Positions 11,547-63,375 of a DNA stretch of 63,375 nucleotides are shown piece by piece. Each line of letters begins with the position of its first letter. Position 1 is the first letter of the stretch. This DNA comes from Candidatus Limnocylindria bacterium (lineage in GTDB: Bacteria; Chloroflexota; Limnocylindria; P2-11E). The notes under the pieces were generated by a model. That model did no database searches. It saw only the letters and a list, made by a program, of their open reading frames with translations, and was not told where the DNA came from. The position numbers and the translations under genes are program-made. Location of the stretch: contig JBBRQB010000004.1 in the NCBI GenBank assembly GCA_038227105.1, positions 1 through 63,375 on the forward strand. The letters run 5' to 3'.

Positions 11547-11567
11547 TATGGCGAAAGAGAGCGGTCT

Positions 11568-12068
11568 GTGCGGCAGCTGCCGGAAACGCGGGCGCTAGCG
11601 ACGGCGCTCGGGGCGCTCCTGCTGATCGGGATCGCCACGAGCTGCTCGGCCACTTCGGTATCCACACGGCCCTCCCGGACTGCGCCGACCGCCTTCGTGA
11701 TCCCGACCAGCCTGTCGAACGGCCGCATCGAGCTGACGATCGCGCCGGCCTATCCGATCGGCGCGACCCTCACCGTCCCGATCGCCATCGTCGCGACGCG
11801 TGGGTCGATCGCAGGCCCGCTGACGGCCCGGATCATGGCGAGCGGCATCAATGAGAAGGGCGCACCGGCCGAGGTGCTCGTGCGCGAGCTCAGCGTCACG
11901 CCGGCGACCGCGACCGCCGGCCGCGCATCGACCTCCGTCGCCTGGGATACGCGGGATCTCAAGGGTGTGCTCGTCCCCGCGGATGCGTACTCGCTCGTCC
12001 TCGAATTCCGTTCCACCGATGGCGCCGTGATGACCGCGATCGCCGGCGCGACGCTGGAGCTCCGCTAG
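11568..12068 (+). CDS. Putative lipoprotein with FlgD-Ig-like C-terminal motif
   Basis: Hydrophobic signal ending in the lipobox-like IATSC; VAWDTRDLKGVLVPADAYSLVL resembles the FlgD_Ig W-D-x-R-D...G...VP...Y motif. Confidence 0.65.
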   Translation: MRQLPETRALATALGALLLIGIATSCSATSVSTRPSRTAPTAFVIPTSLSNGRIELTIAPAYPIGATLTVPIAIVATRGSIAGPLTARIMASGINEKGAPAEVLVRELSVTPATATAGRASTSVAWDTRDLKGVLVPADAYSLVLEFRSTDGAVMTAIAGATLELR

Positions 12069-13992: not shown

Positions 13993-14043
13993 CCCAGAAG
14001 TATGGGCAATGACGCGGTCATACGTGTCATGTCACGCGCGCCC

Positions 14044-42395: not shown

Positions 42396-43523
42396 TCAGC
42401 GCGCCTCATGATCCGCCGCCATGAGCGGCATGGAAAAGCAGAACACCGTCCCGCGCGGTCCACTCGACTCGAGAGCGAGCTCGCCGCCGAGCAGCCGCGC
42501 GATCTCGCGGCCCACGAAGAGACCAAGGCCGGTCCCCGGCTTCGATCTCGCCGCGCTCGTGCGGTAGAACCGCTCGAACAGGCGTCCGCGTTCCGCCTCA
42601 GGGATACCTTGCCCGTGGTCCCGCACGCGCACAACGGCTCGGCGGTCCTCGACGCTCAACGAAACGACGACATCGCCGCCGCCACCGTGACGTATCGCGT
42701 TCACGATCAGGTTGTCGAGCAGCTGCTCGAGCCGGCGACGATCGGCGCTGACCACGGCGACCTCATCCGGGAGCTCCACGCGCAACAACCGGTCTCCGGC
42801 GGTCGGACGCAGGGCCGCGACGCACGCACCCACCACTTCGGCGGGGTCGATCGGCGTGAGCACGACATCGAACTGCCCGAGGTCGATGCGCGCGGCATCG
42901 AGCAGATCGTCGATCAACGCAGCCATGCGGCTCGTCAGCTCGTCGCAGCGCTCCAGCGTGGATCCCACCAGGTCCCATTGGGCACGTCCGTGGAATCGCT
43001 GGGCGAGCTGCACCATGCCCCGGATGGCGGTCAGCGGCGTCTTCAGCTCGTGGCTCGCGGCCCCGAAGAACGCCGTCCGTTCCCGCTCGGCGTTTTCCAG
43101 CGCTGTCACGTCTTCGTACGCCGCGATCGCCCCAGCCACCGCACCGCTCGCGTCACGGATCGGCGCGCTGTTCGTCAAGAGGTCGTACTGCCGCCCATCC
43201 GGTCGCGCATAGCGGACCAGTTCTCCACGGACCTCTTCCCCGCGCAATGAGCGGGCGATCGGCACGTCGGCCAGGTCGTAGGGCGAGCCATCGGCTCGGC
43301 GAAGGGTGCCTTGGAGCTGCCCGGACAGGCCCGGTGCCGGCTGATCCCCGCGTTGGAACAGGTCACGCGTCATTCGGTTCTCGAGCGTGACCTTGCCGAG
43401 GCGATCCATCATCACGACGCCGACGGGCAATACGTCAACAAGCTGCGCCAGGCGGTCGCGCTCCGCCACGAGTGCGGCATTGAGCGCGCCGACGTCGGTC
43501 GGGTCAGGGTTGGTCACCGCCAT
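42396..43523 (-). CDS. Cytoplasmic PAS sensor histidine kinase
   Basis: PAS (LPVGVVMMD...NSAPIRD), SHELKTPL, NLIVNAIRH, DHGQGI, GTGLGL. Confidence 0.92.
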   Translation of the reverse strand: MAVTNPDPTDVGALNAALVAERDRLAQLVDVLPVGVVMMDRLGKVTLENRMTRDLFQRGDQPAPGLSGQLQGTLRRADGSPYDLADVPIARSLRGEEVRGELVRYARPDGRQYDLLTNSAPIRDASGAVAGAIAAYEDVTALENAERERTAFFGAASHELKTPLTAIRGMVQLAQRFHGRAQWDLVGSTLERCDELTSRMAALIDDLLDAARIDLGQFDVVLTPIDPAEVVGACVAALRPTAGDRLLRVELPDEVAVVSADRRRLEQLLDNLIVNAIRHGGGGDVVVSLSVEDRRAVVRVRDHGQGIPEAERGRLFERFYRTSAARSKPGTGLGLFVGREIARLLGGELALESSGPRGTVFCFSMPLMAADHEAR

Positions 43524-43621
43524 CGCCGCCGCAGGCTACGTGTTCGAGGCCCAGGGTCGCAACTGGTGTCGGTCGCCGCAGGTGACGTGCGCGCCGAGAC
43601 GCACACGATGCCGCATGGCGC

Positions 43622-44599
43622 CTAGGGCTGCTCGCCGACCTCGCTGCGGATCGCCGCGACCGAGCCGTCGCGATAGAGGCTGACGAAGGCCGCGACGACA
43701 CCCGGATCGAAGTGCTTGCCCGAGTCGGCCTCGATCGCGGCGAGCCCGCGCTCGGTGCTCCAGGCCTCCTTGTACGGGCGCTTCGAGGTGAGCGCGTCGA
43801 ACACGTCGGCGACCGCGACGATGCGCGCCGCGAGCGAGATCTCCTCGCCCTTCTTGCGGTCGGGGTAGCCAGTGCCATCCCAGCGCTCGTGGTGCTCGCG
43901 CGCGACGAGGCGCCCGGTGGCGAAGAACAGCGCATCCCCGAGCATGACCTCGCCGTCGATGCAGTGCTGCTTGATGGTCTCGAACTGGTCGACCGAGAGC
44001 TCGTGCGGCGCGCCGAGGATGTCGTCCGGCGTCTGGATCTTGCCCACGTCGTGCAGCACGCTCGAGTAGCCGTACTCCTCGATGGTCGCGGGCGGTAGCC
44101 CGAGCTTCGCGCAGATGGACTCGACGTACTTACGGACGCGCACGAGGTGCTGGCCGGTGGTCATGTCCTTGAGCGTCACCGCCATGAGGATGTGGCTCAC
44201 GCCCTGGAGGCCGGTGCGGCGCATCTCGACGTTCGCATTCTGCTCGGCGACGAGCGCACGCTCGAGCTCACGGCGCCGCTCGCGCTCGAGGCGCAGGAGC
44301 GTCGCGAGATCCTCGGCGTAGCGCGTGGCCTGGCGCTCGAGGAGCGCGAGCTCACCGAGCTTGGCGTCGAAGTCCTTGGCGAGGCGCTGCTCGCGGGCGT
44401 ATACGGCCGCGAAGTCTTGGGCCATGCGGAGCGCCTGCGAGTTCGCCTCCTCGGCGACGCGGATCGCCTGCTGGAGCAGCTGGCGGAAGACCTCCGGGGC
44501 CTTTGACTCCGTGTCGGTCGAGAGCGTCGGGCCGAGCTCGACCAGCTCGACGTTGCGGCCGAGGCCGGTGTGCAGGGCGGTGGTGCGCTCGGCCTCCAC
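43622..44599 (-). CDS. HD-GYP cyclic-dinucleotide phosphodiesterase with N-terminal coiled coil
   Basis: T-x-x-H, LHDVGK, HHERWDGTGYP, VADVFDALTSKRPYK all intact. Confidence 0.92.
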   Translation of the reverse strand: MEAERTTALHTGLGRNVELVELGPTLSTDTESKAPEVFRQLLQQAIRVAEEANSQALRMAQDFAAVYAREQRLAKDFDAKLGELALLERQATRYAEDLATLLRLERERRRELERALVAEQNANVEMRRTGLQGVSHILMAVTLKDMTTGQHLVRVRKYVESICAKLGLPPATIEEYGYSSVLHDVGKIQTPDDILGAPHELSVDQFETIKQHCIDGEVMLGDALFFATGRLVAREHHERWDGTGYPDRKKGEEISLAARIVAVADVFDALTSKRPYKEAWSTERGLAAIEADSGKHFDPGVVAAFVSLYRDGSVAAIRSEVGEQP

Positions 44600-44607
44600 G
44601 ACGGTCC

Positions 44608-44982
44608 CTATGTAGCCGGCGCGAGGATCGTGCGAATGGTGTCGATGAGCTCAAGCGGACCGAACGGCTTCGTGAGGTACTGCGCCGCGCCGGCCGCGAA
44701 GCCGACCGCGCGGTCGCTCTCACTATCGTGCGCGGTCAGCATCACGATCGGGATGTCCTTCGTCGCTTCGTCGCTCTTGAGCTCGCGACAGACGTCGAAT
44801 CCGTTCGGGCCGGTGCCCATGTCCACATCGAGCAGCATGAGGTCGGGCTTCTCGGAGCGGGCCATTTCGAGGGCCTTCGTCCCGTTCTCGGCCTCGACGA
44901 TGGTCCAGCCCTGCGTCGACAGGGTGATCCTGACCATCTGGCGGATCGGCACGAGATCGTCAGCGATGAGCAGCTTCGCCAT
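44608..44982 (-). CDS. Stand-alone response-regulator receiver domain
   Basis: LLIADD, LLDVDM, LTA, TKPF; AAGGAG SD and an upstream TACGAT -10. Confidence 0.93.
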   Translation of the reverse strand: MAKLLIADDLVPIRQMVRITLSTQGWTIVEAENGTKALEMARSEKPDLMLLDVDMGTGPNGFDVCRELKSDEATKDIPIVMLTAHDSESDRAVGFAAGAAQYLTKPFGPLELIDTIRTILAPAT

Positions 44983-45079
44983 GTCAGACTCCTTCAATCA
45001 CGTCATGCACTTCGTGCCGCTTGAACTGGAACGATGGCGGAATCGTAGGCGTGGCCCCTCCCCCGCCGGAGTGAACCGA

Positions 45080-45787
45080 TCAGACGGCCTCCCTTGGACG
45101 GGTTCCCGACCGGTCCCGGGTCCAAGCGTCGAGGGTGATGACCCCCAAACGGGCGGCTTCGGCGACCGCTTCGAGCCGGGAATGCGCCCCGAGCTTCCGG
45201 AGGATCGCCTGGACGTGCGCGCGGAGCGTGGCGCTCGAGATGCCGAGCTGGTCCGACGCCTGGGCTGTGGAGGACCCTTCGGCGAGGAGCTGGAGCACCT
45301 CGAGCTCGCGGGCCGTGAGGGGCTCGAGCGGCCGCGGACGCGACTCCCGCTCGAGGAGGAGCCGTTGGAGCTCACTCGGGGCGAAGAGGATCTCGCCGAG
45401 CGCGGCGGACCGCACGCCCTCGACGACCTCGTCGAACGGTCGGTCCTTCGTGAGATGCCCGACGGCACCCGAGCGCGCGACGTCGGAAAGGATCGACGCG
45501 GATTGGTCACCCGTCAGGATCAGGACGGAGGTATCGGGGAGCGTGGCGCGCACGGTGCGCGCGATGTCGGCGCCGGTGCCGTCCGGCAGGTGGTAGTCGG
45601 CGAGGACGACGTCCGGCCTGAGCTCGGTCATGCGGCGTACGCCAGTCGTGACGTCGTGGACGACGTCGACGACCTCGATCCCTGCCGCGGCGCGGAGCGC
45701 GACGCGCAGGAGCTCCGCGAACAGCCGCTCGTCGTCGACGATGAGCACCCTGATGGTGCCCGCACCTGTCTTCGTTTCTGTGGTCAT
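45080..45787 (-). CDS. NarL/LuxR-family DNA-binding response regulator
   Basis: IVDDE, LADYHLP, LT-x-RELEVL...H-x-x-x-ILRKLG-x-x-SR. Confidence 0.93.
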   Translation of the reverse strand: MTTETKTGAGTIRVLIVDDERLFAELLRVALRAAAGIEVVDVVHDVTTGVRRMTELRPDVVLADYHLPDGTGADIARTVRATLPDTSVLILTGDQSASILSDVARSGAVGHLTKDRPFDEVVEGVRSAALGEILFAPSELQRLLLERESRPRPLEPLTARELEVLQLLAEGSSTAQASDQLGISSATLRAHVQAILRKLGAHSRLEAVAEAARLGVITLDAWTRDRSGTRPREAV

Positions 45788-47097
45788 GATCCTGTCGCCT
45801 CCCCTCGGTCATTGCTGCGCGCGGTGCCCGCAAGCGCGGCGACGACCGCCGCATCGAGCTCACCGCGCTGGACTGCGTGCTGAAGGATCTGCACGGCCGC
45901 ATCCGAGGACATCGCCGGTCGGTCGGGCCGTGAGGTGCGGAGCGCCTCGAACCGGTCGGCCACCGCGACGATGCGGACCTCGAGTGGGATCTGCGGTGCC
46001 TTCAGGCCATCCGGGTACCCGCTGCCATCGAGGTGCTCGTGGTGCGAGCGCACGATCGGCAGGAGGCGCGCGAGCGGCCGGAACGCGGTGAGCAGCTCCT
46101 CACCGAGGACCGGATGCCGCTCGATCTGCGTGCGCTCGTCGGGCGAGAGCTCGCTGGCCTTGCGGACCAGGCCGAGCGGCAGCTTCGTGTTCCCGATGTC
46201 GCGAAGAAGGGCGCCGACGCGGATGTTGTTGGAGCTCGCGGCATCGAGCCCAAGCGCCTTGGCGATGGCGACCGCGCGGTTCGCCACCCGCTCGCTGTGT
46301 CCGGCGGTGGAGCGGTCGTGCGACTCGAAGGCCATCGCAAGCGCGATGAGCGCCTCCGAGGCGGCGTCGACGTCACGGCCCAGCGACCGCTCGCGGACTG
46401 CGAGGTCCGCGATACGGACGAGATCGTCGTTCAGCGCGACCATGTCGTTGCCCGCGGGCGCGCCCGCCGCCGCGACGCGGAGCACGGCAGGACCGTCGTT
46501 CCCCAGCTGCGCCGCGACCGTGGCATCGCCGTCGACGACAAGTAGATCGACCGCACGACCCTCGGCGCCGGCCGGGATGATCTCGAATTTCGAGGCGAGG
46601 ATGTGCTCCGCGCGCTCGCGGCGCGGCTGCTCGACAAGGGCCACGATGGCCGTGGGACGGCCGGTGCGCGTGATCTCGGCGGGCTTCGCGAGACGCGGGC
46701 CGCGCATGCGTCGCGACTGGCTCAGCACCGCATCGACGCGCGCGAGGAGCTCGGCCGGGTGGAACGGCTTCGTGAGGTAGTCAGACGCCCCGCAGGAGAG
46801 ACCGCGCACCTTGTCGAAGACATCGCCGCGCGCCGACAGGAAGATCACCGGGATATCCGAGGTCGCAGTGTCGCTCTTCACCTGGAGGCACACGTCGTAG
46901 CCATCGGTGTCGGGCAGCCCGACGTCGAGGAGCACGAGGTCCGGATGGGTCTCGCGGATCAGGGCGAGGCCGTCCGCTCCCGTGCGGCCGACGGATACGG
47001 ACATGCCGTTCGCCTGAAGGCGGCGCTGCAGCACGTCCGCCGACGCCGGGTCGTCCTCGACGACCACGACGTTCGTTTCGGTCTTCAGCACGCTCAA
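45784..47097 (-). CDS. Receiver plus degenerate HD-GYP domain protein
   Basis: N-terminal REC (VEDD, LLDV, LSA, TKPF); HD motif reads LLRDIGN; HHEHLDGSGYP retained. Confidence 0.88.
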   Translation of the reverse strand: MSVLKTETNVVVVEDDPASADVLQRRLQANGMSVSVGRTGADGLALIRETHPDLVLLDVGLPDTDGYDVCLQVKSDTATSDIPVIFLSARGDVFDKVRGLSCGASDYLTKPFHPAELLARVDAVLSQSRRMRGPRLAKPAEITRTGRPTAIVALVEQPRRERAEHILASKFEIIPAGAEGRAVDLLVVDGDATVAAQLGNDGPAVLRVAAAGAPAGNDMVALNDDLVRIADLAVRERSLGRDVDAASEALIALAMAFESHDRSTAGHSERVANRAVAIAKALGLDAASSNNIRVGALLRDIGNTKLPLGLVRKASELSPDERTQIERHPVLGEELLTAFRPLARLLPIVRSHHEHLDGSGYPDGLKAPQIPLEVRIVAVADRFEALRTSRPDRPAMSSDAAVQILQHAVQRGELDAAVVAALAGTARSNDRGEATGS

Positions 47098-47855
47098 GAC
47101 TTGGCCTCCCCGAGAAGATGGCGCATCCCGACGACGAACTTCGACGGACGGTCGGCGGGCGCGCGTTCACGAAGATAGCCGTGCAGCTCCTCGGCCCACG
47201 CCGGGAGGTCGCCGAACCACTTCATCTCCATGACGACGTCGGTCTCGCGGGCGAGGATCGGCCCGATGCGGACGGGCACCGCGTCGTCCGCGTTCGTGGT
47301 CCAGGGCACCGCGAGGTAGATGAGGTTGTGGTCCGCGGTGATGCGGATCCGGTCCTCCGGCGCCGCGTAGGCGAGGCGGTTGTACTGCGTCACCACGACC
47401 GGATGTGCTCCTTTCGTGACGAGCTCCTCGGCTTTCGCGCCGAGCGCCTGCGACGCCTCAGTGAGCGCCTCGGTCTCGCCGCGAAGGAAGGCGGGGACGA
47501 CGTCCCCGGCCATCTCGAACCGCTCCTTGCGCGAGGTGTCCTCGGTGTCCTCCTTGAGCTCCAGCCAGAGACGGGCGCTGGTGAACGCCTCGTCCGGACG
47601 CGTGCGGTGGTACTCGCGGAACCGCAGGCGGAGCGCGTGACCCTGCTCAGCGGCGCGGAAGATCTTCCAATCGTAGGTGTCGCAGTAGGTCGTCGTGGAC
47701 CACTGGTACAGACGGTCGTCGCGTGCCAGCTGGAGGTGCGAGCTCGCGGTGCGCATGACCAGGCGCGCGAGCTCTTCGCTCGCGATGAACCGGTCCTCGC
47801 GACGGGGCATGCTCTCCGGCTGCAGGAAGCTGTCGGCCATCTTCTCGGAGCTCAT
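47094..47855 (-). CDS. VTC / polyphosphate-polymerase domain (CYTH-like triphosphate tunnel) protein
   Basis: RRE-x-RF, TTYCDT, LRLRFREY, LELK...RKER, Y-x-R-x-AY, RITAD, MEMK, SKF. Confidence 0.85.
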   Translation of the reverse strand: MSSEKMADSFLQPESMPRREDRFIASEELARLVMRTASSHLQLARDDRLYQWSTTTYCDTYDWKIFRAAEQGHALRLRFREYHRTRPDEAFTSARLWLELKEDTEDTSRKERFEMAGDVVPAFLRGETEALTEASQALGAKAEELVTKGAHPVVVTQYNRLAYAAPEDRIRITADHNLIYLAVPWTTNADDAVPVRIGPILARETDVVMEMKWFGDLPAWAEELHGYLRERAPADRPSKFVVGMRHLLGEAKS

Positions 47856-49330
47856 TTCGCCTGCGCCTGTGGCACGAGCTTGCCCCGGCGCGTGAGCGCC
47901 AGCCGCACCCGTGCCTCGATGTCCGCACTGCCTTCGCCGAGCAGACCCTGCAGCTCGCTCGTCGGGACCGCACGGCCCTCGCCGTGGAGCATCTGGGACG
48001 CGTTGCGGCGCAGCTCCGGGTCCTCCGAGCGGAGGTTCTCGACGATGCGCCGGCCGAGCGCGCGGCGCACCGAGAACGTGTTGCCGACGAAGATCGCCGA
48101 GCAGATGGTCCCGAACCCGAGGACCACCTGCGGATTGGCGCTGATCGCGCCGGCGACGAGCACGACCGCCGCGCCGATCTCGGCGACGGCGTTGAGGCCG
48201 CCCGAGAAGAACGCGCGCGCCCGCGGCCGCACGCTCGATGCGATCTGGTTGTAGATGATCTGCGTCGCCGGGAGGTGCACGGCGGGGATGACGATCCGCT
48301 CGGCGCCCTGCAGGAGCACCGCGATGATGAGGCCCACGCCCGCCGTCAGCCCGAAGTACGTGCCGGCGCCGAACGTGACCAGGTACCAGAGCGGGAACGC
48401 GAAGATCACGACCGACACGCCAAGCCTGCGGATGAGGCCCCCGGTGAGGAACGTCTGGATGAGAAGCGCCACGACCGAACCGCTCGTGTACACGGACGCG
48501 TACAGCAGCGTGTAGTCATCCTGCGACTGCTGCAGCGTGCCGGCCTTGGTCGCGGTGTCGAGACCCGCAGCGAACAGGTAGTTCGCGATCTGCATCAGGA
48601 AGTACCAGAAGAAGATGTTGATGCCGAACGGGCGTAGCAGCTTGTCGCGCGACACGAGCTTGTAGCCGTTCAGCGAGCCCGCCATGCGCTGCCCGATGGT
48701 CTTTGGCTGGGCCTTCTCGACAAGGACCGCTCCCTCACCCTCCGGAAGATGCCGGCGGAAGAGTACAAGGATGACGAAGGCCAGCGCGAAGCCCACCGCC
48801 TCGACCGCCATGAACGATTCGGAGTGGATGACCGGCGTGAGGCCGGCGGCAAGCAGACCACCGACGATCTTTCCGACCAGGAGCGAGCCCGCGAACAGCG
48901 GGTAGATGCGCTTGCTCTGCTCGCTGTCGAACAGGTTGCCCGCGTAGACCCAGAAGATCAGGTAGATCGTGTCCTTCACGACCTGGGCCACGACATACGT
49001 GAACCAGTAGTCGCTCGACGTGACCGGGAGCGCGACCTGCGCGACGATCGACAGGAGCGTCACGATGCCGACGTACCAGATGAGCAGGTCTCGGCGGCGC
49101 ATTTTCCCGACGAGCGAGAAGATGATGCTCGACGCGACGAGCAGGACGAGCGGCGCGATGATGTACGCGATCGGCAGGTACGGCAGGCCGACGTTCTTGA
49201 TGAAGATCGAGTTCGAGCCCACCTTCCCGACCCAGTTCGCGATCACGGTGACCGAGAGGATCACGTAGAGCAGGGTCACGATCCCCCGCTCTTCGCGACG
49301 CACCGGGAAAAGACGGCGCAGCCAGGTCAC
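47852..49330 (-). CDS. Npt1/Npt2 (TLC ATP/ADP carrier-like) transporter with a short HEAT-like tail
   Basis: About 12 TM helices; FW-x-YA-x-x-LF-x-x-EQSKRIYPL, R-x-RARAF; C-terminal L-x-SEDPELR-x-NA HEAT-like repeat. Confidence 0.8.
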   Translation of the reverse strand: MTWLRRLFPVRREERGIVTLLYVILSVTVIANWVGKVGSNSIFIKNVGLPYLPIAYIIAPLVLLVASSIIFSLVGKMRRRDLLIWYVGIVTLLSIVAQVALPVTSSDYWFTYVVAQVVKDTIYLIFWVYAGNLFDSEQSKRIYPLFAGSLLVGKIVGGLLAAGLTPVIHSESFMAVEAVGFALAFVILVLFRRHLPEGEGAVLVEKAQPKTIGQRMAGSLNGYKLVSRDKLLRPFGINIFFWYFLMQIANYLFAAGLDTATKAGTLQQSQDDYTLLYASVYTSGSVVALLIQTFLTGGLIRRLGVSVVIFAFPLWYLVTFGAGTYFGLTAGVGLIIAVLLQGAERIVIPAVHLPATQIIYNQIASSVRPRARAFFSGGLNAVAEIGAAVVLVAGAISANPQVVLGFGTICSAIFVGNTFSVRRALGRRIVENLRSEDPELRRNASQMLHGEGRAVPTSELQGLLGEGSADIEARVRLALTRRGKLVPQAQAK

Positions 49331-50886
49331 GCGGGCACCGCCGCGGCCCCTCGCGACGCCGCCGGGATCGTGAACTCGACAATGGCGCCCGGCTGGCCGC
49401 CGTTGGCGACCCCGATCTTGCCGCCGTGGAGCTCGACCGCGAGCTTGCAGAATGCGAGGCCCAGGCCGGTGCCGCCGCGGCTACGGCCGGTGTCGGTCTG
49501 ATAGAAGCGATCGAAGACGTGCGCGGCATCGGCCTCCGGGATGCCCGGGCCCGTGTCCATGACGCGCACGATGATGCTGTCGGCGGAGGTCGCGCTCGGC
49601 GTCGCCTCGATGGTCACCGCGCCACCGCCCGGTGTGTGCTTGATGGCGTTAGAGACGAGGTTGGTCAGCACGCGGACCATCAGGCCCGGGTCGATGAAGG
49701 CCATCATGTCGTCGGGGATCTTCTCGTTGAGCGAGATGCCCTTGGCCATCGCCTCGGGGATGAGCTGCGCGAAGCTGCGGCGGACGACGTCCCCGAGCTT
49801 GTTCACGCCGGCGACCGCCTCGAGGCGGCCCTCTTCCATCTTGTAGACGTCGAGGAGCGCGTTGACCATGCGCAGGACCTCGGCGATGTTCGCCTCCGAC
49901 AGCCCGAGCAGCTGCGCGAACTCGGGGCGGTCAGGGGTCAGCTCCCCCATCCGCGCAAGCTGGAGGAACGCGACCACACTGTTCGCGAGATTGCGGATGT
50001 CGTGGCCGAGCATGCCGATGAGCTCCTGCCGGGAGCCCTCCAGCCGCTTCAGATCCTCGTTCTTGTTGCGGAGGTCATCCTGGAGGCGCTTCATGAAGAT
50101 CGCCTGGCGTACGCGCGCGAACAGCTCGACCGGCTCGACGGGCTTGTTCACGTACATGATCCCGCCGGCCTCGAAGCCCGCGGCGACGTCCTCCGGACGG
50201 TCGCGCGCAGTGACGAAGACGACCGGGATGTTCGCGGTCTTCGGGTCGGCCTTGAGGAGCTTCGTCGCCTGCCAGCCATCGAGGCCCGGCATCATGACGT
50301 CCATGAGGATCAAGTCTGGCTGCTCTTTGATCGCCGCCGCGATGGCCTCGTGCCCGTTGGTCGCGCTCACGGTCTCGTAGCCGTTCCCCGTGAGGCGCCG
50401 GACGATGAGCTCGACGTTCGCCGGCTCGTCGTCGACGACGAGGACACGACCGAGCTTCTCGGATGGCTCGACGCCCGACGCCGTGACAGCGGCAGGACGC
50501 GCGATCGGCTTCGGGGCTGAGCCGTCCGCGAAGTAGCGGTTGAGGACGGCACGCAGCTCGGCCGGCGCGTATGGCTTCGTGACGAAGTCATCGCACCCTG
50601 CCTCGCGCGCGCGCTCCCGGTCGGCGTCCATTGCGAGAGCGGACACGGCGATGATCGGGATCTCGGTGGCCCAGGCCTCGGCGCGGATCGCCCGCGTCAC
50701 GGCCCAGCCATCCAGCTTCGGCAGCAGCAGGTCGACGAGGATGGCGTCTGGGTGCTCCCGGCGAGCGACCTCGAGACCCATGGCGCCATCCGTCGCGATG
50801 AGCGCCTCGTGGCCCGCGCCGCGCACGATGCGCTGCGCGACGTCCAGGTTGTTCGCCTCGTCCTCGACGATCAGGATGCGGGCCAT
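49327..50886 (-). CDS. Hybrid REC-REC-HisKA-HATPase histidine kinase (cytoplasmic)
   Basis: Two intact receivers (VEDE/VDLLLP and VDDE/MDVMMP), GHDIRN, NLVSNAIK, DTGPGI, GTGLGL; ATG at 50886. Confidence 0.92.
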   Translation of the reverse strand: MARILIVEDEANNLDVAQRIVRGAGHEALIATDGAMGLEVARREHPDAILVDLLLPKLDGWAVTRAIRAEAWATEIPIIAVSALAMDADRERAREAGCDDFVTKPYAPAELRAVLNRYFADGSAPKPIARPAAVTASGVEPSEKLGRVLVVDDEPANVELIVRRLTGNGYETVSATNGHEAIAAAIKEQPDLILMDVMMPGLDGWQATKLLKADPKTANIPVVFVTARDRPEDVAAGFEAGGIMYVNKPVEPVELFARVRQAIFMKRLQDDLRNKNEDLKRLEGSRQELIGMLGHDIRNLANSVVAFLQLARMGELTPDRPEFAQLLGLSEANIAEVLRMVNALLDVYKMEEGRLEAVAGVNKLGDVVRRSFAQLIPEAMAKGISLNEKIPDDMMAFIDPGLMVRVLTNLVSNAIKHTPGGGAVTIEATPSATSADSIIVRVMDTGPGIPEADAAHVFDRFYQTDTGRSRGGTGLGLAFCKLAVELHGGKIGVANGGQPGAIVEFTIPAASRGAAAVPA

Positions 50887-53183
50887 CAGGCGACCCCAAC
50901 GACAGCGGCGATGGCCTTCACGTAGACCGGCATGGTGAAGCTGAAGACGCTCCCGCCGTTCGCGCCGCTCTCGACCCAGATGCGGCCACCGTGCAGCGCG
51001 ACGAGGCGCTTGCTGATCGCGAGGCCGAGGCCCGTGCCGCCGTACCGCCGGGTCGTCGACGCGTCGGCCTGCCTGAACTCGTCGAAGATGTAGGCCTGCG
51101 CCTCTTGACTGATACCGATGCCGGTGTCCGCCACGGACACCGTCACCCAACCGTCGCCGGTCGTCGCAGTGATCGTCACGGCGCCCGTGTCGGTGAACTT
51201 CACGGCGTTCGACACGAGGTTCACGACGACCTGGCGGAATCGCGCACGGTCGGCGAGGATCGTGGGCAGCTCCGCCGGGATGTTCGCGACGACCGCGAGC
51301 TCCTTCGCGTCGGACTGCGGCCGGATGAGCGCGATGACATCGTCCATGACCGGGCGGACGTCGAGCTCCTCGACATTGATCTCCATCCGGCCCGCCTCGA
51401 TCTTGGAGAGGTCAAGCAGGCCGTTGATCAGACCGAGCAGGTTGTCGGCGGCGGTCGTGACCCGCTGCAGGTCGGATTCCTGCTGCGAGTTCAACTCGCC
51501 GTCGAGCCCGTCGAGCATGAGCTTCGAGTACCCGATGATCGCATTCATCGGCGTCCGCAGCTCGTGCGACACGTTCGCAAGGAACTCGCTCTTCAAGCGG
51601 TTCGCACGCTCGAGCTGGAAGTTGTTGTCACGCAGCTCACCGACGAGATCGGCGTTCTCCTTCGCGACCGACACGAGTCGTGCGACCGTGCGCAGCGTCC
51701 GTGCCTCGGACTCGGTGATCTCGGCCTCGCCCTTGAAGTAGACGGAGAGTAGGCCGGTGATGAGGCCTCGCGTCGACAACGGCACGTGCGCAGCGCTGCG
51801 CAGCGAGCCGAATGGGATCTCGGAGCGCTGCACCACGTCGGGGTCGCCGGTCTTGGCGTTCAGCACGTCGGCGGCGACGCGTGTCGCCGTCTGATCCTCG
51901 ATGGTGACGGTGCTCGCGGCCACCAGATCCTCGCTCGCGCCATCGCGCAGAACGATCGCCGCGGCGTCAGCCTTGACCAGCGTGACCAGCCGCGTGAGGG
52001 ACTCGGCGAAGATCCGCTCGCGGTCGGTGACGCCGACGACGGCGTCGGATACGGCATTGACGGTGCGGACCTCGTCGAGGTACTCCTGCTGCGCGCGATC
52101 GCGCTCCTGGAGCGAGCGGGCCATGGTGTCGAAGGCGCGCTCCAGGGTGCCCACCTCGTACGGCGAGCGCCCGTCGATGCGCACCCCGAGGTCACCGGCC
52201 TCGATCTTCTGTGCGGCGTTCGCCAGGTTCGCGAGCGGCGCGGTGATCGTGCGCGCCGAGCGGTACGACACGAGGATGACGACGATGATCACGCCGACGA
52301 GCACGCCACCGAGGATGATGAACAGCGATCGCTGGGCCTGTTCGACCGGGGCCGCGGCTACGAGGACGCCCAGAAGCAGCGGATCCGAGTTGGCCGTGTG
52401 TGTCCGTTCCAGGGTGAAGATGCCGTAGTAGTTCGCACCGTCGACGACGATCGTCCGGGTGACGAGGTCGCTTGGCGACGCGTCGACCTCGGCGCTCGTG
52501 GGGAACTGCGCGACCTCGTCGGCGTCGATGGCGATGGTCGCGGCCCGTGGGGCGCCGCGCCAGAGCACGGCGAGCTGAGCGTCCGAGCTCGACTGCACAG
52601 ACTGGAGGAAGCCCACGTCGAGGACCGTCCCGACCATGACGTAGCCGAGGACCCGGGTGTTCGCGTCATCGCGGACGATCGACAGCGCGCGGACGGTGAC
52701 GCCGGCGGGCTCGTCATAGAGGACATACGCCTGCTCGGGGCTCGCATTGGCGCGCGCGAGGAGGTCCGTTCCGAGCTTCTCACCCGGCGCAATGTCCTGC
52801 CCACCAGTGATGACGGTGCCAGCCGCGTCGGCATAGCTGAGGATGTCCGCGCCGATGCTCGACTTGGCGAAGAGCAGGAAGCTCTGGACCTCGGCGAGCT
52901 TCGCAGCGCCGTGATCGGTAAGGAAATCTGTCGCAAGTCGCTTTGTCGTAGGCAGCCCGGCAACGAAGCGCGCGCCGCGCGTCGCGGTCACGACGCGCGC
53001 ATCGATCGCGGACGTCGCGTTGCCCGCGATGAGGCCTGCCTCGTCCTGGAAGCGCGATTGGACAAGGCCGTTGGACACGTACTGCGCGACGAACACGATC
53101 ACCAGAGCCGCGAGGACGCTGACCGTCGCCGTGCGAAGCACGAGGACGCGCAGCAGGCTCGGTGACGCGATCCGACTGAGCAT
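50886..53183 (-). CDS. Membrane sensor histidine kinase (TM, extracytoplasmic Cache-like domain, TM, HAMP, GAF, HisKA, HATPase)
   Basis: HAMP (ITAPL...[12 protein letters not shown]), GAF (HVPL...GLLSV), [23 protein letters not shown]. Confidence 0.92.
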
Positions 53184-53202
53184 CAGAGCGTTCTTTGGTT
53201 AC

Positions 53203-54042
53203 CTACTCGCCCGAGATGATCTTCTGGCCCTCGGGGCTCTTCACGAAGTCCACGAGTGCCTTGATCGCCGGTTTGACCTTGGCCGGGTCGCTGTTGGTCG
53301 TCATGTAGCTCGCCTTCGACATCTTCCAGGTGCCCGTGCCAAGGTTCGCGAGCGTCGGCTGGATCCCGTCCATACCGATGAACTTGATCGTCGTGTCCTT
53401 CAGGTTCTTCGCGTTGAGCGTGGCCATGCCGATCGATCCCTTGAATGCGCCTATCGCCTTGATCGTGTCGGTCGACTCGAAGATCTCCTGGACATCGGCG
53501 GGGTACTTCGGCGCGGTCGACCCGAAGACGTATCCCTCGATCGTGGTGCGGGTCGAGCTCGCCGCTTCGCGCACGAATGCTTTGACCGGTCCGGCCGTGC
53601 TGCCGATCTCCGACCAGTCCTTGATCGTAGCGGAGTACATCTTTGCGACCTGGTCCTTGGTCAGGTTCGTGATGGTGTTCGCGGGGTTGACCGCCAGGGC
53701 GCTGCCGGTGAAGCCGATCGGCGTGAGCACGATCTTGGCCTCGGTCGAGCGGAGCTCACGGCCGATGTAGCCGAAGTCAACGTCGCCGGTGCTCACATTG
53801 ACGTTGCTCGTCTCGGTGTCGATGTCGTTGAGCTTGAAGTTGACGCCGGGGTGCAGCTCGCTGAAGCGCTTGGTGAGCGCCGTCATTGCCGGGTTCGCGC
53901 CGTTCGCGCCTGATGCGGTGTATTCGCCCGCGAGCGGGTCCTTTGTCCTTACTGGCGTCGGCAGGACACTGCCACCGCCGCCTGTGCCGCAGGCGCCGAG
54001 CACGAGGATCGCTGTCATGAGGAGCCCGACTCCGCGTCCCAC
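53203..54042 (-). CDS. PstS-like (PBP_like_2) substrate-binding lipoprotein, divergent
   Basis: Lipobox LGAC; overall PstS-type motif order (G...P, D-x-G-x-x-GR, VNP-x-N, I-x-x-W-x-x-IG, RE-x-x-S-x-TR, DGI-x-PT); no pstCAB nearby. Start GTG 54042 or ATG 54018. Confidence 0.8.
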   Translation of the reverse strand: MGRGVGLLMTAILVLGACGTGGGGSVLPTPVRTKDPLAGEYTASGANGANPAMTALTKRFSELHPGVNFKLNDIDTETSNVNVSTGDVDFGYIGRELRSTEAKIVLTPIGFTGSALAVNPANTITNLTKDQVAKMYSATIKDWSEIGSTAGPVKAFVREAASSTRTTIEGYVFGSTAPKYPADVQEIFESTDTIKAIGAFKGSIGMATLNAKNLKDTTIKFIGMDGIQPTLANLGTGTWKMSKASYMTTNSDPAKVKPAIKALVDFVKSPEGQKIISGE

Positions 54043-54233
54043 CCGACGAATATCCAAAGATCGCCTCCACCCAATTACTTCGCTAGATTCGTCAGATGCT
54101 CCGTCAGGCGGTGTAGTCCGGCATCCCTCAATGGGGGGAAGCAGGGTGTCCGGGGACGGGCGGTTTGCGTACACGAGCACGACCGGGCTCGCTTGAATGG
54201 TCCGCTTCCCTAGAATGAGGTCTCCCCAAGCGC

Positions 54234-54305
54234 GGAGGCGTTGGTGTAGCGGTAACACTGGAGAATGTGGATCTCCCTTCGAGGGTTCAACTCCCTCACG
54301 CCTCC
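54234..54305 (+). tRNA. tRNA-His (GUG)
   Basis: G-1 (54234) pairs with C73 (54305); acceptor GAGGCGT/ACGCCTC; D stem GTGT/ACAC; anticodon arm GGAGA-ATGTGGA-TCTCC; T arm GAGGG-TTCAACT-CCCTC; TAGAAT -10 at 54211; CCA not fully encoded. Confidence 0.88.
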
Positions 54306-54330
54306 CAGATAGGTAACCCCAGGTAAACAA

Positions 54331-54355
54331 GAAGCGCGGCCACTGGCCGCGCTTC
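54331..54355. terminator. Bidirectional intrinsic terminator between tRNA-His and the FecR gene
   Basis: GAAGCGCGGCC-ACT-GGCCGCGCTTC, flanked by AAACAA and GTTGT. Confidence 0.8.
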
Positions 54356-54383
54356 GTTGTGTCTCCAACCGGTCCGGCTGAGG

Positions 54384-56042
54384 TCAGTCGCCCTCTTTGC
54401 TGTTGTTGTTCTTCGGCGCCGTCGGCACCTTGATCTGCGGGATCACGTTGAGCCTGGGCGCAGGCGTCTTCTCAGGGGTTTCGGTCTTGGTCGCCGGCTT
54501 TTCGGTGGCCGGTCTTTCGGTCGAGGGCCTTTCGGTCGAGGGCCTTTCAGTTGCGGGCTTCTCCGTGGCGGCTTTCTCGGTGGCGGGACGCTCTGTGACC
54601 GGCTTCGTCCTCTCGTTGTCGCCTGATGTCGTGCCGCTCGTGCTGCTGCCGCCGGTCACGGGTGTGATCGGAATGATGCCGCCCCCCGGATTGAAGAACC
54701 GGCTCGCGGGCGTCGCGGTCGGCTCGGTCTTCTCCGCGTCCTGCTTCTGCTTCGCAGGTTCCGCCGCTTGCGCGTCCTTCGCCTTCTCGGCCGCGTCGCT
54801 CGAGATATCCGGGGCTGGCGTCCGAGTAGCGGGCGTCGCAAGGATCCCGGTGCGACCACCCGTCGTTGTGTTGTCGTTGGACGACGTATTGCGGGTCGGG
54901 CTCGGCGTCTTGCCGCTGTCGTTCTGATCGGTGTTGCTGTTCTGCTCGGCGGCCTTCTTCTGCTCATCTTCGGTCGGCGTCTTCGGCGCTTCGCTGACCT
55001 TGATCGGCTTGGTCTCGGTGATCTTCTTCAGCTTGAGCGACGGCGTCGAGTCACCAGTGTCGGTCGAGCCCGTCGCACCACTCGCGCCCGTCGATCCGGT
55101 CTTGTGCAGCTCGACGCCGGTCACGGCGTTGTCCGACGGCTTGACCTTCTCGGTGACCTGGACGGGCGCCTTGCCCTTCTCCTCGACCTTCGTCGTGACC
55201 TCAACGTCGTCACTCTTGCTCGTGTTGAGGAAGTGCGTCGCGAGGTCGCCATCCGGGATGTTCGGCAGGGTCACGATGGTCTTCCCGTCGACGACCTTCA
55301 CCTGCGCACCCGGCGTCTGGATGATCGTCTTGCCATCCTTGACTCCGTTGGCGCGGCCGAAGGCGTCGACGACGAGCGTGTTCTGATCGCCGACGGTCAC
55401 GGTGACCTTGCGCTCGGGCTCCGGCGCGGGCTGCGGCGGAGTGGGCTTTTGACCATTCTTCGTGGTCGTGATGAGCCCCGGCGTGACCGCAACGGTCGTC
55501 GTGGCTGCCGTGTCACTCGTCGCGACATTGCCCTCGGTCGTCGCGACGGATGTCGTCTGCTCGGCATCGACTCCAACGATGAACTGCGTGCCACGAACGG
55601 ACGCGGTCGATGCGGTGGTGTGAACGTCGTACTTGGATCCGCCCTGCACGAGGTGTGTGACCACGTGCCACGTCGTGCCGAGCTGCTGCCGCATCTCGAT
55701 GACCGTGCTGCCGTCGGGGTTGCCGTGGGCGACCTCGATCGCGAGCTCGGACATCGGCTCGATCTCGACCGTGGATCCCTCGAAGTACGTCAGGACGGCG
55801 CGCGCGTCGGCACCAGTGCGGACGGAGTCGCCGGGGGCGAGGACCATGCCGTCATCGGCGGCGGTGTAGTTGCCGGTACCGTGCCGCACCTGGACGTCGC
55901 CGCTGATGATCGCAAGCGTCGTTGAGGCGCCGAGCGCGGTGCGCTGGTTCTTGGGCGTGAGCACACCCGTCGCGCCGAGCGCGATGGCGAGCACGAACGC
56001 GACACCCAGTGCCGCGGCGGCCAGACGCAGACGGTTGTTCAC
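54384..56042 (-). CDS. FecR-domain membrane protein with long low-complexity Thr/Lys/Pro/Glu tail
   Basis: N-terminal TM helix; GDSVRTG-x-D-x-RA-x-L-x-YFEGS, TASVRGT-x-F-x-V, V-x-T-x-EG-x-V FecR motifs; GTG at 56042. Confidence 0.85.
   Translation of the reverse strand: MNNRLRLAAAALGVAFVLAIALGATGVLTPKNQRTALGASTTLAIISGDVQVRHGTGNYTAADDGMVLAPGDSVRTGADARAVLTYFEGSTVEIEPMSELAIEVAHGNPDGSTVIEMRQQLGTTWHVVTHLVQGGSKYDVHTTASTASVRGTQFIVGVDAEQTTSVATTEGNVATSDTAATTTVAVTPGLITTTKNGQKPTPPQPAPEPERKVTVTVGDQNTLVVDAFGRANGVKDGKTIIQTPGAQVKVVDGKTIVTLPNIPDGDLATHFLNTSKSDDVEVTTKVEEKGKAPVQVTEKVKPSDNAVTGVELHKTGSTGASGATGSTDTGDSTPSLKLKKITETKPIKVSEAPKTPTEDEQKKAAEQNSNTDQNDSGKTPSPTRNTSSNDNTTTGGRTGILATPATRTPAPDISSDAAEKAKDAQAAEPAKQKQDAEKTEPTATPASRFFNPGGGIIPITPVTGGSSTSGTTSGDNERTKPVTERPATEKAATEKPATERPSTERPSTERPATEKPATKTETPEKTPAPRLNVIPQIKVPTAPKNNNSKEGD
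54496..54600 (-). repeat. Seven degenerate 15-nt coding tandem repeats (TE[RK]P[AS]-type pentapeptides)
   Basis: Units begin at 54496, 54511, 54526, 54541, 54556, 54571 and 54586; they encode VTERPATEKAATEKPATERPSTERPSTERPATEKP. Confidence 0.85.
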
Positions 56043-63144: not shown

Positions 63145-63375
63145 TGGACAGCGGCACATGGATCGTCATCGCGGTCGTCGTTCTCGGGCTGGTGTTCGAG
63201 TTCGTCAACGGCTTCCACGACGCCGCCAATGCGATCGCGACGGTCGTCGCGACGCGTGTGCTGACACCGTTCCAGGCGCTGGCCATGGCCGGCACGCTGA
63301 ACCTTGCCGGCGCGCTTGCCGGCACCGCGGTAGCCGTCACCGTCGCCAAGGGCATCGTCGACAGCACCAAGGTCA
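63144..63375 (+). CDS. pit: PiT family inorganic phosphate transporter (3' truncated by window edge)
   Basis: NGFHDAANAIAT signature; TAATG overlap with the DUF47 stop. Confidence 0.93.
   Translation, partial: MDSGTWIVIAVVVLGLVFEFVNGFHDAANAIATVVATRVLTPFQALAMAGTLNLAGALAGTAVAVTVAKGIVDSTKV

What the first reader, a model, noticed from the sequence alone, without database searches (positions are those of the whole stretch)
53203..54042. PstS-fold lipoprotein with phosphate-ligating motifs replaced, dedicated to a kinase rather than a transporter
Seen: GANGANP where PstS typically has GS(S/T)(T/S)V-x-P, DTETS where the GS-x-x-G motif is expected, GYIGR for (A/M)SSR, and EAASSTR for the SGT motif. 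The gene sits 19 nt upstream of the sensor HK and no pstCAB is present. Known: these Ser/Thr/Gly residues hydrogen-bond phosphate in PstS. Inference: it is an accessory receptor for the HK and binds a different ligand (another oxyanion, phosphonate or nucleotide).
Basis: partly seen in the sequence, partly recalled or inferred. Interest (0 to 1): 0.55.

Follow-up and report, generated by a model that had tools for sequence, protein, structure and literature searches.

The report
PstS-derived lipoprotein co-sensor for a kinase
An uncultured soil and sediment Chloroflexota lineage (Limnocylindria) has turned a phosphate-binding-protein fold into a membrane-tethered outside receptor that is always encoded just ahead of a sensor kinase rather than a transporter. 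Half of its phosphate-gripping residues have been replaced and then frozen by selection, so it probably reports a signal other than ordinary high-affinity phosphate.

Summary
AlphaFold gives pLDDT 91 and a PstS fold (Z 26 to 1TWY).

Mapped on the nine phosphate ligands of C. perfringens PBP-1:
- The four N-lobe hydroxyls are gone (S11A, T12N, S13G, S59G).
- S41 becomes Thr, flanked by new Asp and Glu.
- The C-lobe R-x3-S-x-T clamp is kept (G130S).

These residues are 98-100% invariant in 121 orthologue clusters (dN/dS about 0.2).

The gene lies 19 nt upstream of a dCache-HAMP-GAF histidine kinase in every orthologous locus read. Paralogous binding-protein/kinase pairs were duplicated together, and their trees mirror each other. 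None of 37 subfamily loci has an ABC permease beside it. Relatives that have pstB carry their own D-type PstS. This genome has no pstB or pstC; it has pitA.

The subfamily was found only in the window's order.

Best reading (about 0.6): a LuxP/LuxQ- or HptA/HptS-like co-sensor with an unknown, probably anionic, ligand. Binding and interaction are untested.

The scan has already flagged the same operon in other Limnocylindria genomes.

Verdict: a new variant of a known kind, of moderate interest.

The parts
53203..54057 (-). Gene for the PstS-fold lipoprotein.
   Evidence: ORF and translation. PF12849 scores 87.6 bits. TIGR02136 scores 113.9 bits, below its 206.6 cut-off. AlphaFold2 pLDDT is 91.4. 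Best fold matches are 1TWY, 4GD5/4Q8R and 9L8J.
54064..54068 (-). GGAGG ribosome-binding site, 6 nt before TTG 54057
   Evidence: Read from the sequence. The homologue length of 283-284 aa agrees with this start.
53989..54057 (-). Lipoprotein signal peptide ending in the lipobox L-G-A-C. A roughly 20-aa low-confidence tether follows it.
   Evidence: Translation. The Cys is invariant in the subfamily alignment A4. pLDDT is 54-64 over the first 30 residues.
53890..53910 (-). G45-A-N-G-A-N-P51, which replaces G-S-T-S-V-x-P (ligands S11, T12 and S13 of PBP-1)
   Evidence: G45 to N50 are 99-100% invariant and P51 is 92% conserved in 121 orthologue clusters.
53806..53820 (-). D75-T-E-T-S79, which replaces G-S-S-A-G. 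Ligand S41 becomes T76, now flanked by two acidic residues at the start of helix 76-85.
53758..53772 (-). G91-Y-I-G-R95, which replaces G-M-A-S-R. Ligand S59, the Ser that defines S-type PstS, becomes G94; R95 is kept.
53548..53571 (-). R158-E-A-A-S-S-T-R165, the retained C-lobe anion clamp (R125, S129 and T131 kept; G130 becomes S163)
53184..53202 (-). 19-nt spacer between the lipoprotein stop codon and the kinase ATG
50886..53183 (-). Membrane histidine kinase, 765 aa: TM, outside domain, TM, HAMP, GAF, HisKA, HATPase_c
   Evidence: Pfam and translation
52329..53078 (-). Extracytoplasmic dCache-fold sensor domain of the kinase (about residues 36-285)
   Evidence: AlphaFold2 pLDDT 79. Foldseek matches DctB, Tlp3 and the LuxQ periplasmic domain at probability 1.0, with TM-scores normalised by target length of 0.5-0.6. 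Paralogues carry precomputed dCache_3 hits.
42396..50889 (-). Rest of the conserved co-directional signalling cluster: REC-REC-HK, TLC/MFS-like 492-aa carrier, VTC domain protein, REC-HD-GYP, NarL-type regulator, lone REC, HD-GYP, PAS-HK
   Evidence: Pfam and Atlas. The order is conserved in G004 and G007 and, up to the contig end, in another family, G026.
54235..54306 (+). tRNA-His on the opposite strand. Together with the bidirectional hairpin at 54331-54355 it separates the cluster from the upstream FecR-domain gene.

Best explanation
The gene encodes a lipid-anchored extracytoplasmic solute-binding protein that descends from S-type PstS (the PBP_like_2 family). It no longer serves a phosphate ABC transporter. 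It acts instead as the ligand-binding co-sensor of the dCache-HAMP-GAF histidine kinase encoded 19 nt downstream.

Proposed working (inferred):
1. The lipoprotein is tethered to the outer face of the membrane by a roughly 20-residue linker, next to the kinase's dCache domain.
2. It closes around a small ligand.
3. The closed or open form docks on the dCache dimer and shifts the kinase/phosphatase balance, as LuxP does for LuxQ and HptA for HptS.
4. The signal then passes through the REC-REC-HK relay to HD-GYP enzymes and a NarL-type regulator. The same operon holds a VTC (polyphosphate-polymerase-like) protein and a TLC-like carrier.

The ligand is probably not phosphate bound in the canonical high-affinity mode. 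The C-lobe half-site (R158, S162, S163, T164) still looks like an anion clamp. The N-lobe half-site has lost four hydroxyl side chains and gained D75, E77, N47 and N50. This suggests either a larger ligand or a zwitterionic ligand with an anionic head, or only weak phosphate binding.

Shown here: fold, residue changes, selection, gene linkage, co-duplication, and absence of a transporter. Inferred: physical interaction, direction of control, and ligand.
For: Fold:
- AlphaFold2 pLDDT is 91.4.
- The best matches are phosphate-binding proteins: 1TWY at Z 26.2 and rmsd 2.8 over 236 residues, and 4GD5/4Q8R at Z 24.
- PF12849 scores 87.6 bits, but the PstS-family model TIGR02136 scores only 113.9 against a cut-off of 206.6.

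Pocket:
- Four of the nine published PBP-1 ligands are lost, one is changed conservatively and one goes Gly->Ser.
- Removing the hydroxyl equivalent to S13 (SphX T17A) abolished phosphate binding (PMC13614923).
- The variant residues are 98-100% invariant in 121 orthologue clusters.
- dN/dS is 0.17-0.31 against genus relatives at 75-89% protein identity (0.49 against the 62%-identical L025), similar to the kinase sensor domain.

Linkage:
- The kinase homologue, including its outside domain, lies directly downstream in every orthologous locus with sequence.
- Clade B, including a second pair in this genome with a 4-nt overlap, and the pairs of family f2 are linked to a kinase in the same way.
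- Every orthogroup in the binding-protein tree is either all kinase-linked or all orphan, and the kinase-sensor tree mirrors it.

Kinase sensor: it has a dCache fold, as in LuxQ.

No transporter:
- No TM-rich permease or ABC gene sits next to any of 37 subfamily loci.
- The own genome has no pstB or pstC but does have pitA.
- Relatives with pstB have their own D-type PstS beside it.

Canonical PstS genes elsewhere in the phylum keep GSTTVQP, GGGSxxG, ASR and REEGSGTR, and most (19 of the 29 loci read) are followed by pstC/pstA-like membrane genes.
Against: - No binding or interaction data exist. No multimer prediction and no model coordinates were available, so the pocket was judged from alignment only.
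- The C-lobe clamp, R95 and the main-chain NH donors remain, so micromolar-to-millimolar phosphate binding is possible.
- dCache domains usually bind ligands themselves, so the kinase may not need a partner.
- Eleven of 20 paralogue loci are orphans with unrelated neighbours, so the subfamily is not strictly tied to kinases.
- Mirrored trees are expected for any two neighbouring genes inherited together, so they do not prove contact.
- No fusion of this domain to a kinase was found.
- The positional orthologue in family f2 has different pocket motifs (GGGGALP, GSDAS, FVSR, SATR). The ligand may therefore differ even within the same operon type, or the pocket may matter less than assumed.
Confidence: 0.6

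Rival explanations
1. It is a low-affinity phosphate sensor. It is still the kinase's co-sensor, but the ligand is inorganic phosphate bound weakly (micromolar to millimolar). The system would then report ambient phosphate sufficiency and control the VTC/polyphosphate and c-di-GMP genes of the operon.
For: - R158, S162, T164, R95 and T76 are kept.
- Sll0540, a PstS paralogue encoded away from both pst gene clusters, binds phosphate weakly (PMC13614923).
- The operon holds a VTC domain protein, and the window ends in pitA.
- Kinase-linked PstS-like genes with intact phosphate motifs exist in three other Chloroflexota families.
- Earlier scan reports read the same operon as phosphate-sensing.
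Against: - Four hydroxyl ligands are lost, including the one whose loss abolished binding in SphX.
- Two acidic residues now cap the N-lobe helix that points at the anion.
- Invariance of N47, N50, D75 and E77 suggests a new specific contact rather than mere weakening.
Confidence: 0.2
2. It is a transport protein after all. It would deliver a substrate to a transporter encoded elsewhere, or to the TLC/MFS-like 492-aa carrier three genes downstream, and its position beside the kinase only reflects co-regulation.
For: - Most PBP_like_2 proteins serve ABC importers.
- The operon contains a 12-TM-type carrier that is conserved with it.
- Orphan paralogues exist.
Against: - No ABC permease or ATPase sits next to any subfamily locus.
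- pstB and pstC were not found in this genome.
- No TLC- or MFS-type carrier is known to use a binding protein (my own knowledge).
- The clade-B pair in this genome has no such carrier downstream. The weak MFS-like ORF upstream of it is unrelated to the 492-aa protein.
Confidence: 0.1
3. It is a ligand-independent accessory lipoprotein. The PstS fold would be kept only as a scaffold that modulates the kinase (as YycH/YycI do for WalK), and the pocket changes would reflect loss of binding.
For: - The N-lobe loop is reduced to small residues across the subfamily (GGGGA, GAAAAS).
- N47 and N50 are not kept in the most basal orthologue, L025.
Against: - The pocket-lining motifs are the most conserved parts of the protein, at 98-100% against a 0.89 mean.
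- A decaying site would drift, yet the C-lobe clamp is invariant across the whole subfamily.
Confidence: 0.1

Closest known systems
S-type PstS phosphate-binding proteins (C. perfringens PBP-1 4Q8R/4GD5, V. cholerae VCA0807 1TWY, Synechocystis Sll0540 9L8J)
   Same: - The same two-lobe fold (Z 22-26).
- The same Pfam family, PF12849.
- The same C-lobe R-x3-S-x-T clamp and the conserved Arg of the 'SR' motif.
- It is a lipoprotein, like the Borrelia PstS lipoprotein BB0215 (title cited in PMC5381212) and, from my own knowledge, PstS of Gram-positive bacteria.
   Different: - Ligands S11, T12, S13 and S59 are replaced by A, N, G and G.
- Acidic residues flank the S41 equivalent.
- It scores below the NCBIfam PstS cut-off.
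- There is no pstCAB next to it.
- It is encoded with a kinase.
LuxP-LuxQ (Vibrio) and HptA-HptS (S. aureus) binding-protein-dependent sensor kinases
   Same: - The solute-binding protein has no transporter of its own.
- Its gene lies beside a membrane kinase whose outside domain is a double-PAS/dCache module.
- Foldseek matches the kinase sensor here to the LuxQ periplasmic domain (1ZHH, 2HJ9).
   Different: - The binding protein belongs to another family: LuxP is Peripla_BP_4 and HptA is SBP_bac_11.
- The ligands differ (AI-2, glucose-6-phosphate).
- Interaction here is inferred only.
- The kinase carries an extra cytoplasmic GAF domain and feeds a REC-REC-HK relay.
PstS-CtpL of Pseudomonas aeruginosa (phosphate chemotaxis)
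   Same: It is the only PBP_like_2 protein listed as a stimulator of a signalling receptor in the review PMC8050422.
   Different: There the transporter's own, fully canonical PstS moonlights on a chemoreceptor. Here a dedicated, re-tuned paralogue is paired with a kinase.
AioX-AioS (arsenite sensing)
   Same: A periplasmic binding protein of an oxyanion/phosphonate-type family is encoded with a sensor kinase and used only for signalling (Table 1 of PMC8050422 lists the pair; the Phosphonate_bd assignment of AioX is from my own knowledge).
   Different: - The Pfam family differs.
- The kinase sensor is sCache-like.
- The ligand is known for AioX and unknown here.

Membership tests
PBP_like_2 (PF12849) superfamily domain | Score above Pfam's gathering threshold over the full domain | tested here: met
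   87.6 bits against a cut-off of 27, covering profile positions 3-267 of 267
PstS family phosphate ABC transporter substrate-binding protein (NCBIfam TIGR02136) | Score above the curated cut-off | tested here: not met
   113.9 bits against a cut-off of 206.6
PstS family phosphate ABC transporter substrate-binding protein | Two-lobe PstS fold | tested here: met
   pLDDT 91.4. Matches: 1TWY at Z 26.2 and rmsd 2.8 over 236 aligned residues; 4Q8R at Z 24.1.
PstS family phosphate ABC transporter substrate-binding protein | The set of phosphate-ligating residues (PBP-1: S11, T12, S13, S41, S59, R125, S129, G130, T131) | tested here: not met
   Here these are A46, N47, G48, T76, G94, R158, S162, S163 and T164. 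Four side-chain donors are lost.
PstS family phosphate ABC transporter substrate-binding protein | Encoded with, or serving, pstC, pstA and pstB | tested here: not met
   There is no permease beside it in any locus. The 92%-complete genome has no pstB or pstC. Relatives' pst operons have their own D-type PstS.
PstS family phosphate ABC transporter substrate-binding protein | High-affinity phosphate binding | not testable with these tools
   Needs ITC or thermal shift on purified protein
Binding-protein-dependent sensor kinase systems (LuxPQ, HptAS, TorTS type) | The binding-protein gene is adjacent to the kinase gene, in the same direction, and this is conserved | tested here: met
   The gap is 19 nt here. 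Adjacency holds in all orthologous loci read, and clade B and the f2 pairs are linked in the same way.
Binding-protein-dependent sensor kinase systems (LuxPQ, HptAS, TorTS type) | The kinase has an extracytoplasmic sensor domain able to dock a binding protein (dCache/double PAS in LuxQ and HptS) | tested here: met
   The dCache fold matches DctB, Tlp3 and the LuxQ periplasmic domain at Foldseek probability 1.0.
Binding-protein-dependent sensor kinase systems (LuxPQ, HptAS, TorTS type) | Physical contact between binding protein and sensor domain, and ligand-dependent change of kinase activity | not testable with these tools
TupA/ModA-type tungstate or molybdate binding proteins | Closest structural and sequence kinship to TupA/ModA, and a neighbouring Tup/Mod permease | tested here: inconclusive
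   TupA (5MY5) reaches Z 15.7, against 22-26 for PstS proteins. There is no permease beside the gene. The genome's likely Tup/Mod-type protein is a different gene on contig C64. The TupA ligand motif itself was not aligned.

The most novel reading that the evidence does not exclude
PstS-derived lipoproteins paired with dCache kinases may form an undescribed class of outside three-component sensors in Chloroflexota.
- Some keep an intact phosphate pocket. Three other families have such a gene directly downstream of a membrane kinase, away from the pst operon.
- In Limnocylindria the family has radiated into several co-duplicated receptor/kinase pairs whose pockets were re-tuned. In the window's orthogroup the pocket combines an anion clamp with new acidic and amide residues.
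- This would fit a condensed phosphate, an aminophosphonate or phospho-amine, or another zwitterion.
- The signal would control a bacterial VTC-type polyphosphate enzyme and c-di-GMP turnover.
Probability: 0.25. Interest if true: 0.65.

Novelty: new variant of a known kind. Interest (0 to 1): 0.45.

Why it matters
Phosphate sensing in bacteria is normally read indirectly, through the activity of the PstSCAB transporter and PhoU. A PstS-fold protein wired directly to a kinase would be a different and simpler input route.

The re-tuned pocket would also be a natural example of how a very selective anion site is converted to a new specificity.

It gives a concrete handle, in the form of a soluble and easily expressed 26-kDa protein, on the signal that controls an operon containing two families whose bacterial roles are unknown: VTC domain proteins and TLC-like carriers.

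The lineage is uncultured and the mechanism is a variant of known binding-protein-dependent kinases, so the general interest is moderate.

Tried and rejected
I took contexts from the genome search and the fetch from genomes instead.
- The search for related loci with the subfamily alignment failed because no stretch was conserved enough.
- I looked for fusions of this domain to signalling domains. The 'longer' search gave nothing. Ten long representatives are only tandem binding-protein repeats.
- No RNA holder was listed among public runs, so expression and co-transcription could not be examined.
- The sigma-70 promoter scan found nothing in 52900-54500.
- Model coordinates are not exposed, so no pocket geometry or electrostatics could be computed. 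Residue roles rest on alignment to 4Q8R.
- I considered that the 492-aa carrier and the MFS-like ORF upstream of the paralogous pair might be a shared partner. They are unrelated.
- I considered the upstream FecR-domain gene as part of the unit and rejected it. A tRNA on the other strand and a hairpin separate it, and it was found upstream in only one of three relatives checked.
- I tested homology between this kinase's sensor domain and those of kinases next to canonical PstS genes in other families. hhalign gave probability 0.5%.
- The Atlas search on the lipoprotein added nothing beyond PBP_like_2.
- Literature searches found no described PBP_like_2 protein dedicated to a kinase. This search covers open-access text only.
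Full report
**The gene.** The finding sits on the minus strand. The open frame runs from 54330 to the stop at 53203-53205. Its upstream part overlaps a tRNA-His on the plus strand (54235-54306) and a bidirectional hairpin (54331-54355) that ends the preceding FecR-domain gene. However, TTG 54057 is preceded at 6 nt by GGAGG (54064-54068) and gives 284 aa, the length of nearly all database homologues (283-284 aa). I take 54057 as the start. The N-terminus is a lipoprotein signal peptide ending in L-G-A-C. The Cys is invariant in the subfamily. A roughly 20-residue low-confidence tether follows it. Source names for close homologues place the organism in Candidatus Limnocylindria, Chloroflexota. 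Residue numbers below use the 279-aa numbering from GTG 54042.

**Family and fold.** Pfam gives PBP_like_2 at 87.6 bits. The NCBIfam PstS-family model reaches only 113.9 bits against a cut-off of 206.6. An AlphaFold2 model built on 73 sequences has pLDDT 91.4. Its best structural matches are all phosphate-binding proteins of the short 'S-type': V. cholerae 1TWY (Z 26.2, rmsd 2.8 over 236 residues), C. perfringens 4GD5/4Q8R (Z 24) and Synechocystis Sll0540 9L8J (Z 22). TupA and ModA follow at Z 15. The fold claim is confirmed.

**The pocket.** The crystal-structure paper on C. perfringens PBP-1 lists nine phosphate ligands: S11, T12, S13, S41, S59, R125, S129, G130 and T131 (PMC5381212). The HMMER alignment of the window protein to that chain has no gaps over these stretches. 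It gives these equivalents:

| PBP-1 ligand | Window residue | Change |
|---|---|---|
| S11 | A46 | hydroxyl lost |
| T12 | N47 | hydroxyl lost |
| S13 | G48 | hydroxyl lost |
| S41 | T76 | conservative; now flanked by D75 and E77 |
| S59 | G94 | hydroxyl lost |
| R125 | R158 | kept |
| S129 | S162 | kept |
| G130 | S163 | main-chain contact; side chain added |
| T131 | T164 | kept |

So the four N-lobe hydroxyl donors are gone. The S41 equivalent sits at the first turn of helix 76-85 between two new acidic residues. The C-lobe clamp is essentially intact.

The SphX study reports that T17, the equivalent of PBP-1 S13, is the likely proton acceptor, and that T17A abolished phosphate binding (PMC13614923). 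That position is Gly here. By inference only, two further residues conserved in canonical sequences are changed: the Asp of the 'DG' motif is T112, and the Arg of the 'RP' motif is K243. I suspect, but could not verify, that these are the Asp-Arg pair of that paper's triad.

**Selection.** The new residues are fixed rather than drifting.
- In 121 orthologue clusters at 79-89% identity, G45-A-N-G-A-N50, D75-T-E-T-S79, D89-F-G-Y-I-G-R95 and R158-E-A-A-S-S-T-R165 are 98-100% invariant. Mean column conservation is 0.89.
- Pairwise dN/dS against genus relatives at 75-89% protein identity is 0.17-0.31 (0.49 against the 62%-identical L025). This is close to the values for the kinase's sensor domain (Nei-Gojobori, rough at this divergence).

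**A lineage-specific subfamily.**
- A full HMMER scan of 1.8 billion representatives found only 32 clusters at E <= 1e-30.
- The closest 20 or so full-length representatives nearly all lack the Ser/Thr-rich first motif. They read GGGGA-like, GSDxG, xSR and RExxS(A/S)TR. More distant hits read GSTSVQP, GGGSxxG, xSSREL and REEGSGTR.
- A profile of the subfamily scores 340-400 bits on most members from the window's order (three orphan paralogues, L072, L076 and L091, score 289-297). It scores at most 210 bits in 300 other genomes of the phylum.
- Those other hits have canonical motifs, and most (19 of 29 loci read) are followed by multi-TM pstC/pstA-like genes.
- Within the subfamily the window's orthogroup is the most derived (GANGAN, DTETS, YIGR).
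- An acidic residue after the S41 equivalent (D or E at position 77) recurs in most of the subfamily (17 of 22 rows of alignment A4).

**Link to the kinase.** The next gene, 19 nt downstream, encodes a 765-aa kinase: TM, about 250 outside residues, TM, HAMP, GAF, HisKA and HATPase. A model of residues 1-310 (pLDDT 79) shows one long helix followed by two alpha/beta modules. It matches dCache domains: DctB, Tlp3, and the periplasmic domain of LuxQ both alone and in complex with LuxP. Paralogous kinases carry precomputed dCache_3 hits.
- In every orthologous locus with sequence on that side, the kinase homologue, including its sensor domain, lies directly downstream.
- The same genome holds a second pair on contig C1. 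There the binding protein is 41% identical, the kinase sensor 39% identical, and the genes overlap by 4 nt.
- Of 20 further paralogue loci, nine have such a kinase directly downstream and eleven do not.
- In a maximum-likelihood tree every well-supported orthogroup is either entirely kinase-linked or entirely orphan. The linked groups are the window's clade (14 rows), clade B (9 rows) and two groups from the sister family.
- The tree of the kinase sensor domains reproduces the same groups and most inner branches.

Pairs were therefore duplicated and inherited as units. This is what a cognate receptor/kinase pair predicts. Linkage alone would also produce it, so I count it as support, not proof.

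**No transporter.**
- None of the 37 subfamily loci read has an ABC permease or ATPase next to it. The orphans' neighbours are unrelated: a PEMT-like methyltransferase, an acyltransferase, RelA/SpoT, CARDB, MOSC, TPR, xanthine-dehydrogenase subunits, and single REC or HD-GYP genes.
- The window's genome (92% complete) has no pstB or pstC near their cut-offs. It has a pitA gene split between the window's end (63207-63365) and contig C6.
- Its third PBP_like_2 gene (C64) sits with a TOBE/MerR regulator and a permease, and is probably a Tup/Mod-type protein.
- PstB is over its cut-off in 14 of 31 genomes of the order. In the two examined, a classical D-type PstS (GAGATFP, GSGGG, DFGASD) lies beside it.

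So the subfamily is not the Pst system's binding protein.

**Operon context.** The kinase is followed by REC-REC-HK, a 492-aa membrane protein, a VTC domain protein, REC-HD-GYP, a NarL-type regulator, a lone REC, HD-GYP and a PAS kinase. The 492-aa protein has no Pfam hit, but Atlas features place it among TLC/MFS-like clusters at 0.97-0.98. The order is conserved in two genus relatives and, up to the contig end, in another family. There the binding protein is the least conserved member: 43% identity against 48-72% for the others. Its pocket motifs are of the GGGGALP/GSDAS type. Either specificity has shifted within one operon type or the pocket is less constrained between lineages than within them.

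**Interpretation.** The best-supported reading is a lipid-anchored, PstS-derived co-sensor for the dCache kinase. It would work like LuxP-LuxQ or HptA-HptS (review PMC8050422).

On the ligand, the evidence argues against canonical high-affinity phosphate binding. It favours an anionic group held by the retained C-lobe clamp. The remodelled N-lobe side has small residues plus Asn, Asp and Glu, which would either enlarge the site or add contacts for a cationic or polar moiety.

Candidates include a condensed phosphate, a phosphonate or phospho-amine, another oxyanion, and even an amino-acid-like zwitterion. I cannot rank them with the tools at hand. Weak phosphate binding remains a live rival at about 0.2.

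**What is new.** Binding-protein-dependent kinases are well known. The only PBP_like_2 example in the review tables is the transporter's own PstS acting on the chemoreceptor CtpL. I found no description of a dedicated, re-tuned PstS paralogue paired with a kinase (open-access text only).

The scan itself has already reported the same operon in other Limnocylindria genomes and read its first gene as a 'phosphate-type outside sensor'. My residue mapping qualifies that wording.

In passing, I found that three other Chloroflexota families have a PstS-like gene with fully canonical motifs directly downstream of a membrane HAMP-GAF or HAMP-PAS kinase, away from their pst operons. Kinase-linked PstS paralogues may therefore be a broader theme of which this is the derived form.

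**Limits.**
- Unpublished genomes: G006 and G010 are included in the tallies and in two rows (L011, L014), and G341 is in the tally. I left them out of all alignments, models and trees, and no conclusion depends on them.
- No RNA data, no multimer prediction and no model coordinates were available.

Noticed in passing
L092 (G042:C212), L093 (G202:C22), L094 (G305:C1): In three other Chloroflexota families a PstS-like gene with fully canonical phosphate motifs lies directly downstream of a 708-802 aa membrane kinase (outside domain, HAMP, GAF or PAS). No pstC or pstA is beside it, and pstB sits on other contigs. Kinase-linked PstS paralogues therefore also exist with intact pockets.
   Followed up: partly
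L029 (own genome, contig C1) 1988-6949: This is a second, paralogous binding-protein/dCache-kinase pair in the same genome. The genes overlap by 4 nt, the kinase lacks GAF, and the pocket reads GGGTIP, GSDAA, GVSR and AATR. A FIST-domain protein and an AstE/AspA-like hydrolase follow it, instead of the relay/VTC genes.
   Followed up: partly
L072, L074, L076, L079, L082, L084, L085, L088-L091: Eleven subfamily paralogues are orphans with neither a kinase nor a transporter beside them. They form their own orthogroups in the tree. One group (L088-L090) includes the second PstS-like gene that lies about 10 kb from the cluster's first gene, on the same contig, in G003 (L089).
   Followed up: partly
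window 63207-63365, and contig C6 10-723 (L065, L066): A PitA/PHO4 phosphate transporter gene is cut by the contig end at the end of the window. Together with the missing pstB and pstC, this suggests the genome relies on Pit for phosphate uptake, or that the pst operon lies in the unassembled 8%.
   Followed up: partly
L001 (own genome, contig C64) 87-2074: The best PBP_like_2 hit in the genome (163 bits) sits between a TOBE/MerR-type regulator and an ABC permease. It is probably a tungstate/molybdate-type uptake system, not PstS.
   Followed up: no
L030 (G026:C80) 6799-13999 versus window 45784-54057: Between the two families of the order, the binding protein is the fastest-diverging gene of the conserved cluster: 43% identity against 48-72% for the other five genes. 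It also carries a different pocket motif set.
   Followed up: partly
window 47852-49330 (-): The 492-aa membrane protein has no Pfam or NCBIfam hit at E < 0.01. Only language-model features place it among TLC/MFS-like clusters, so its 'nucleotide transporter-like' label rests on weak evidence.
   Followed up: partly
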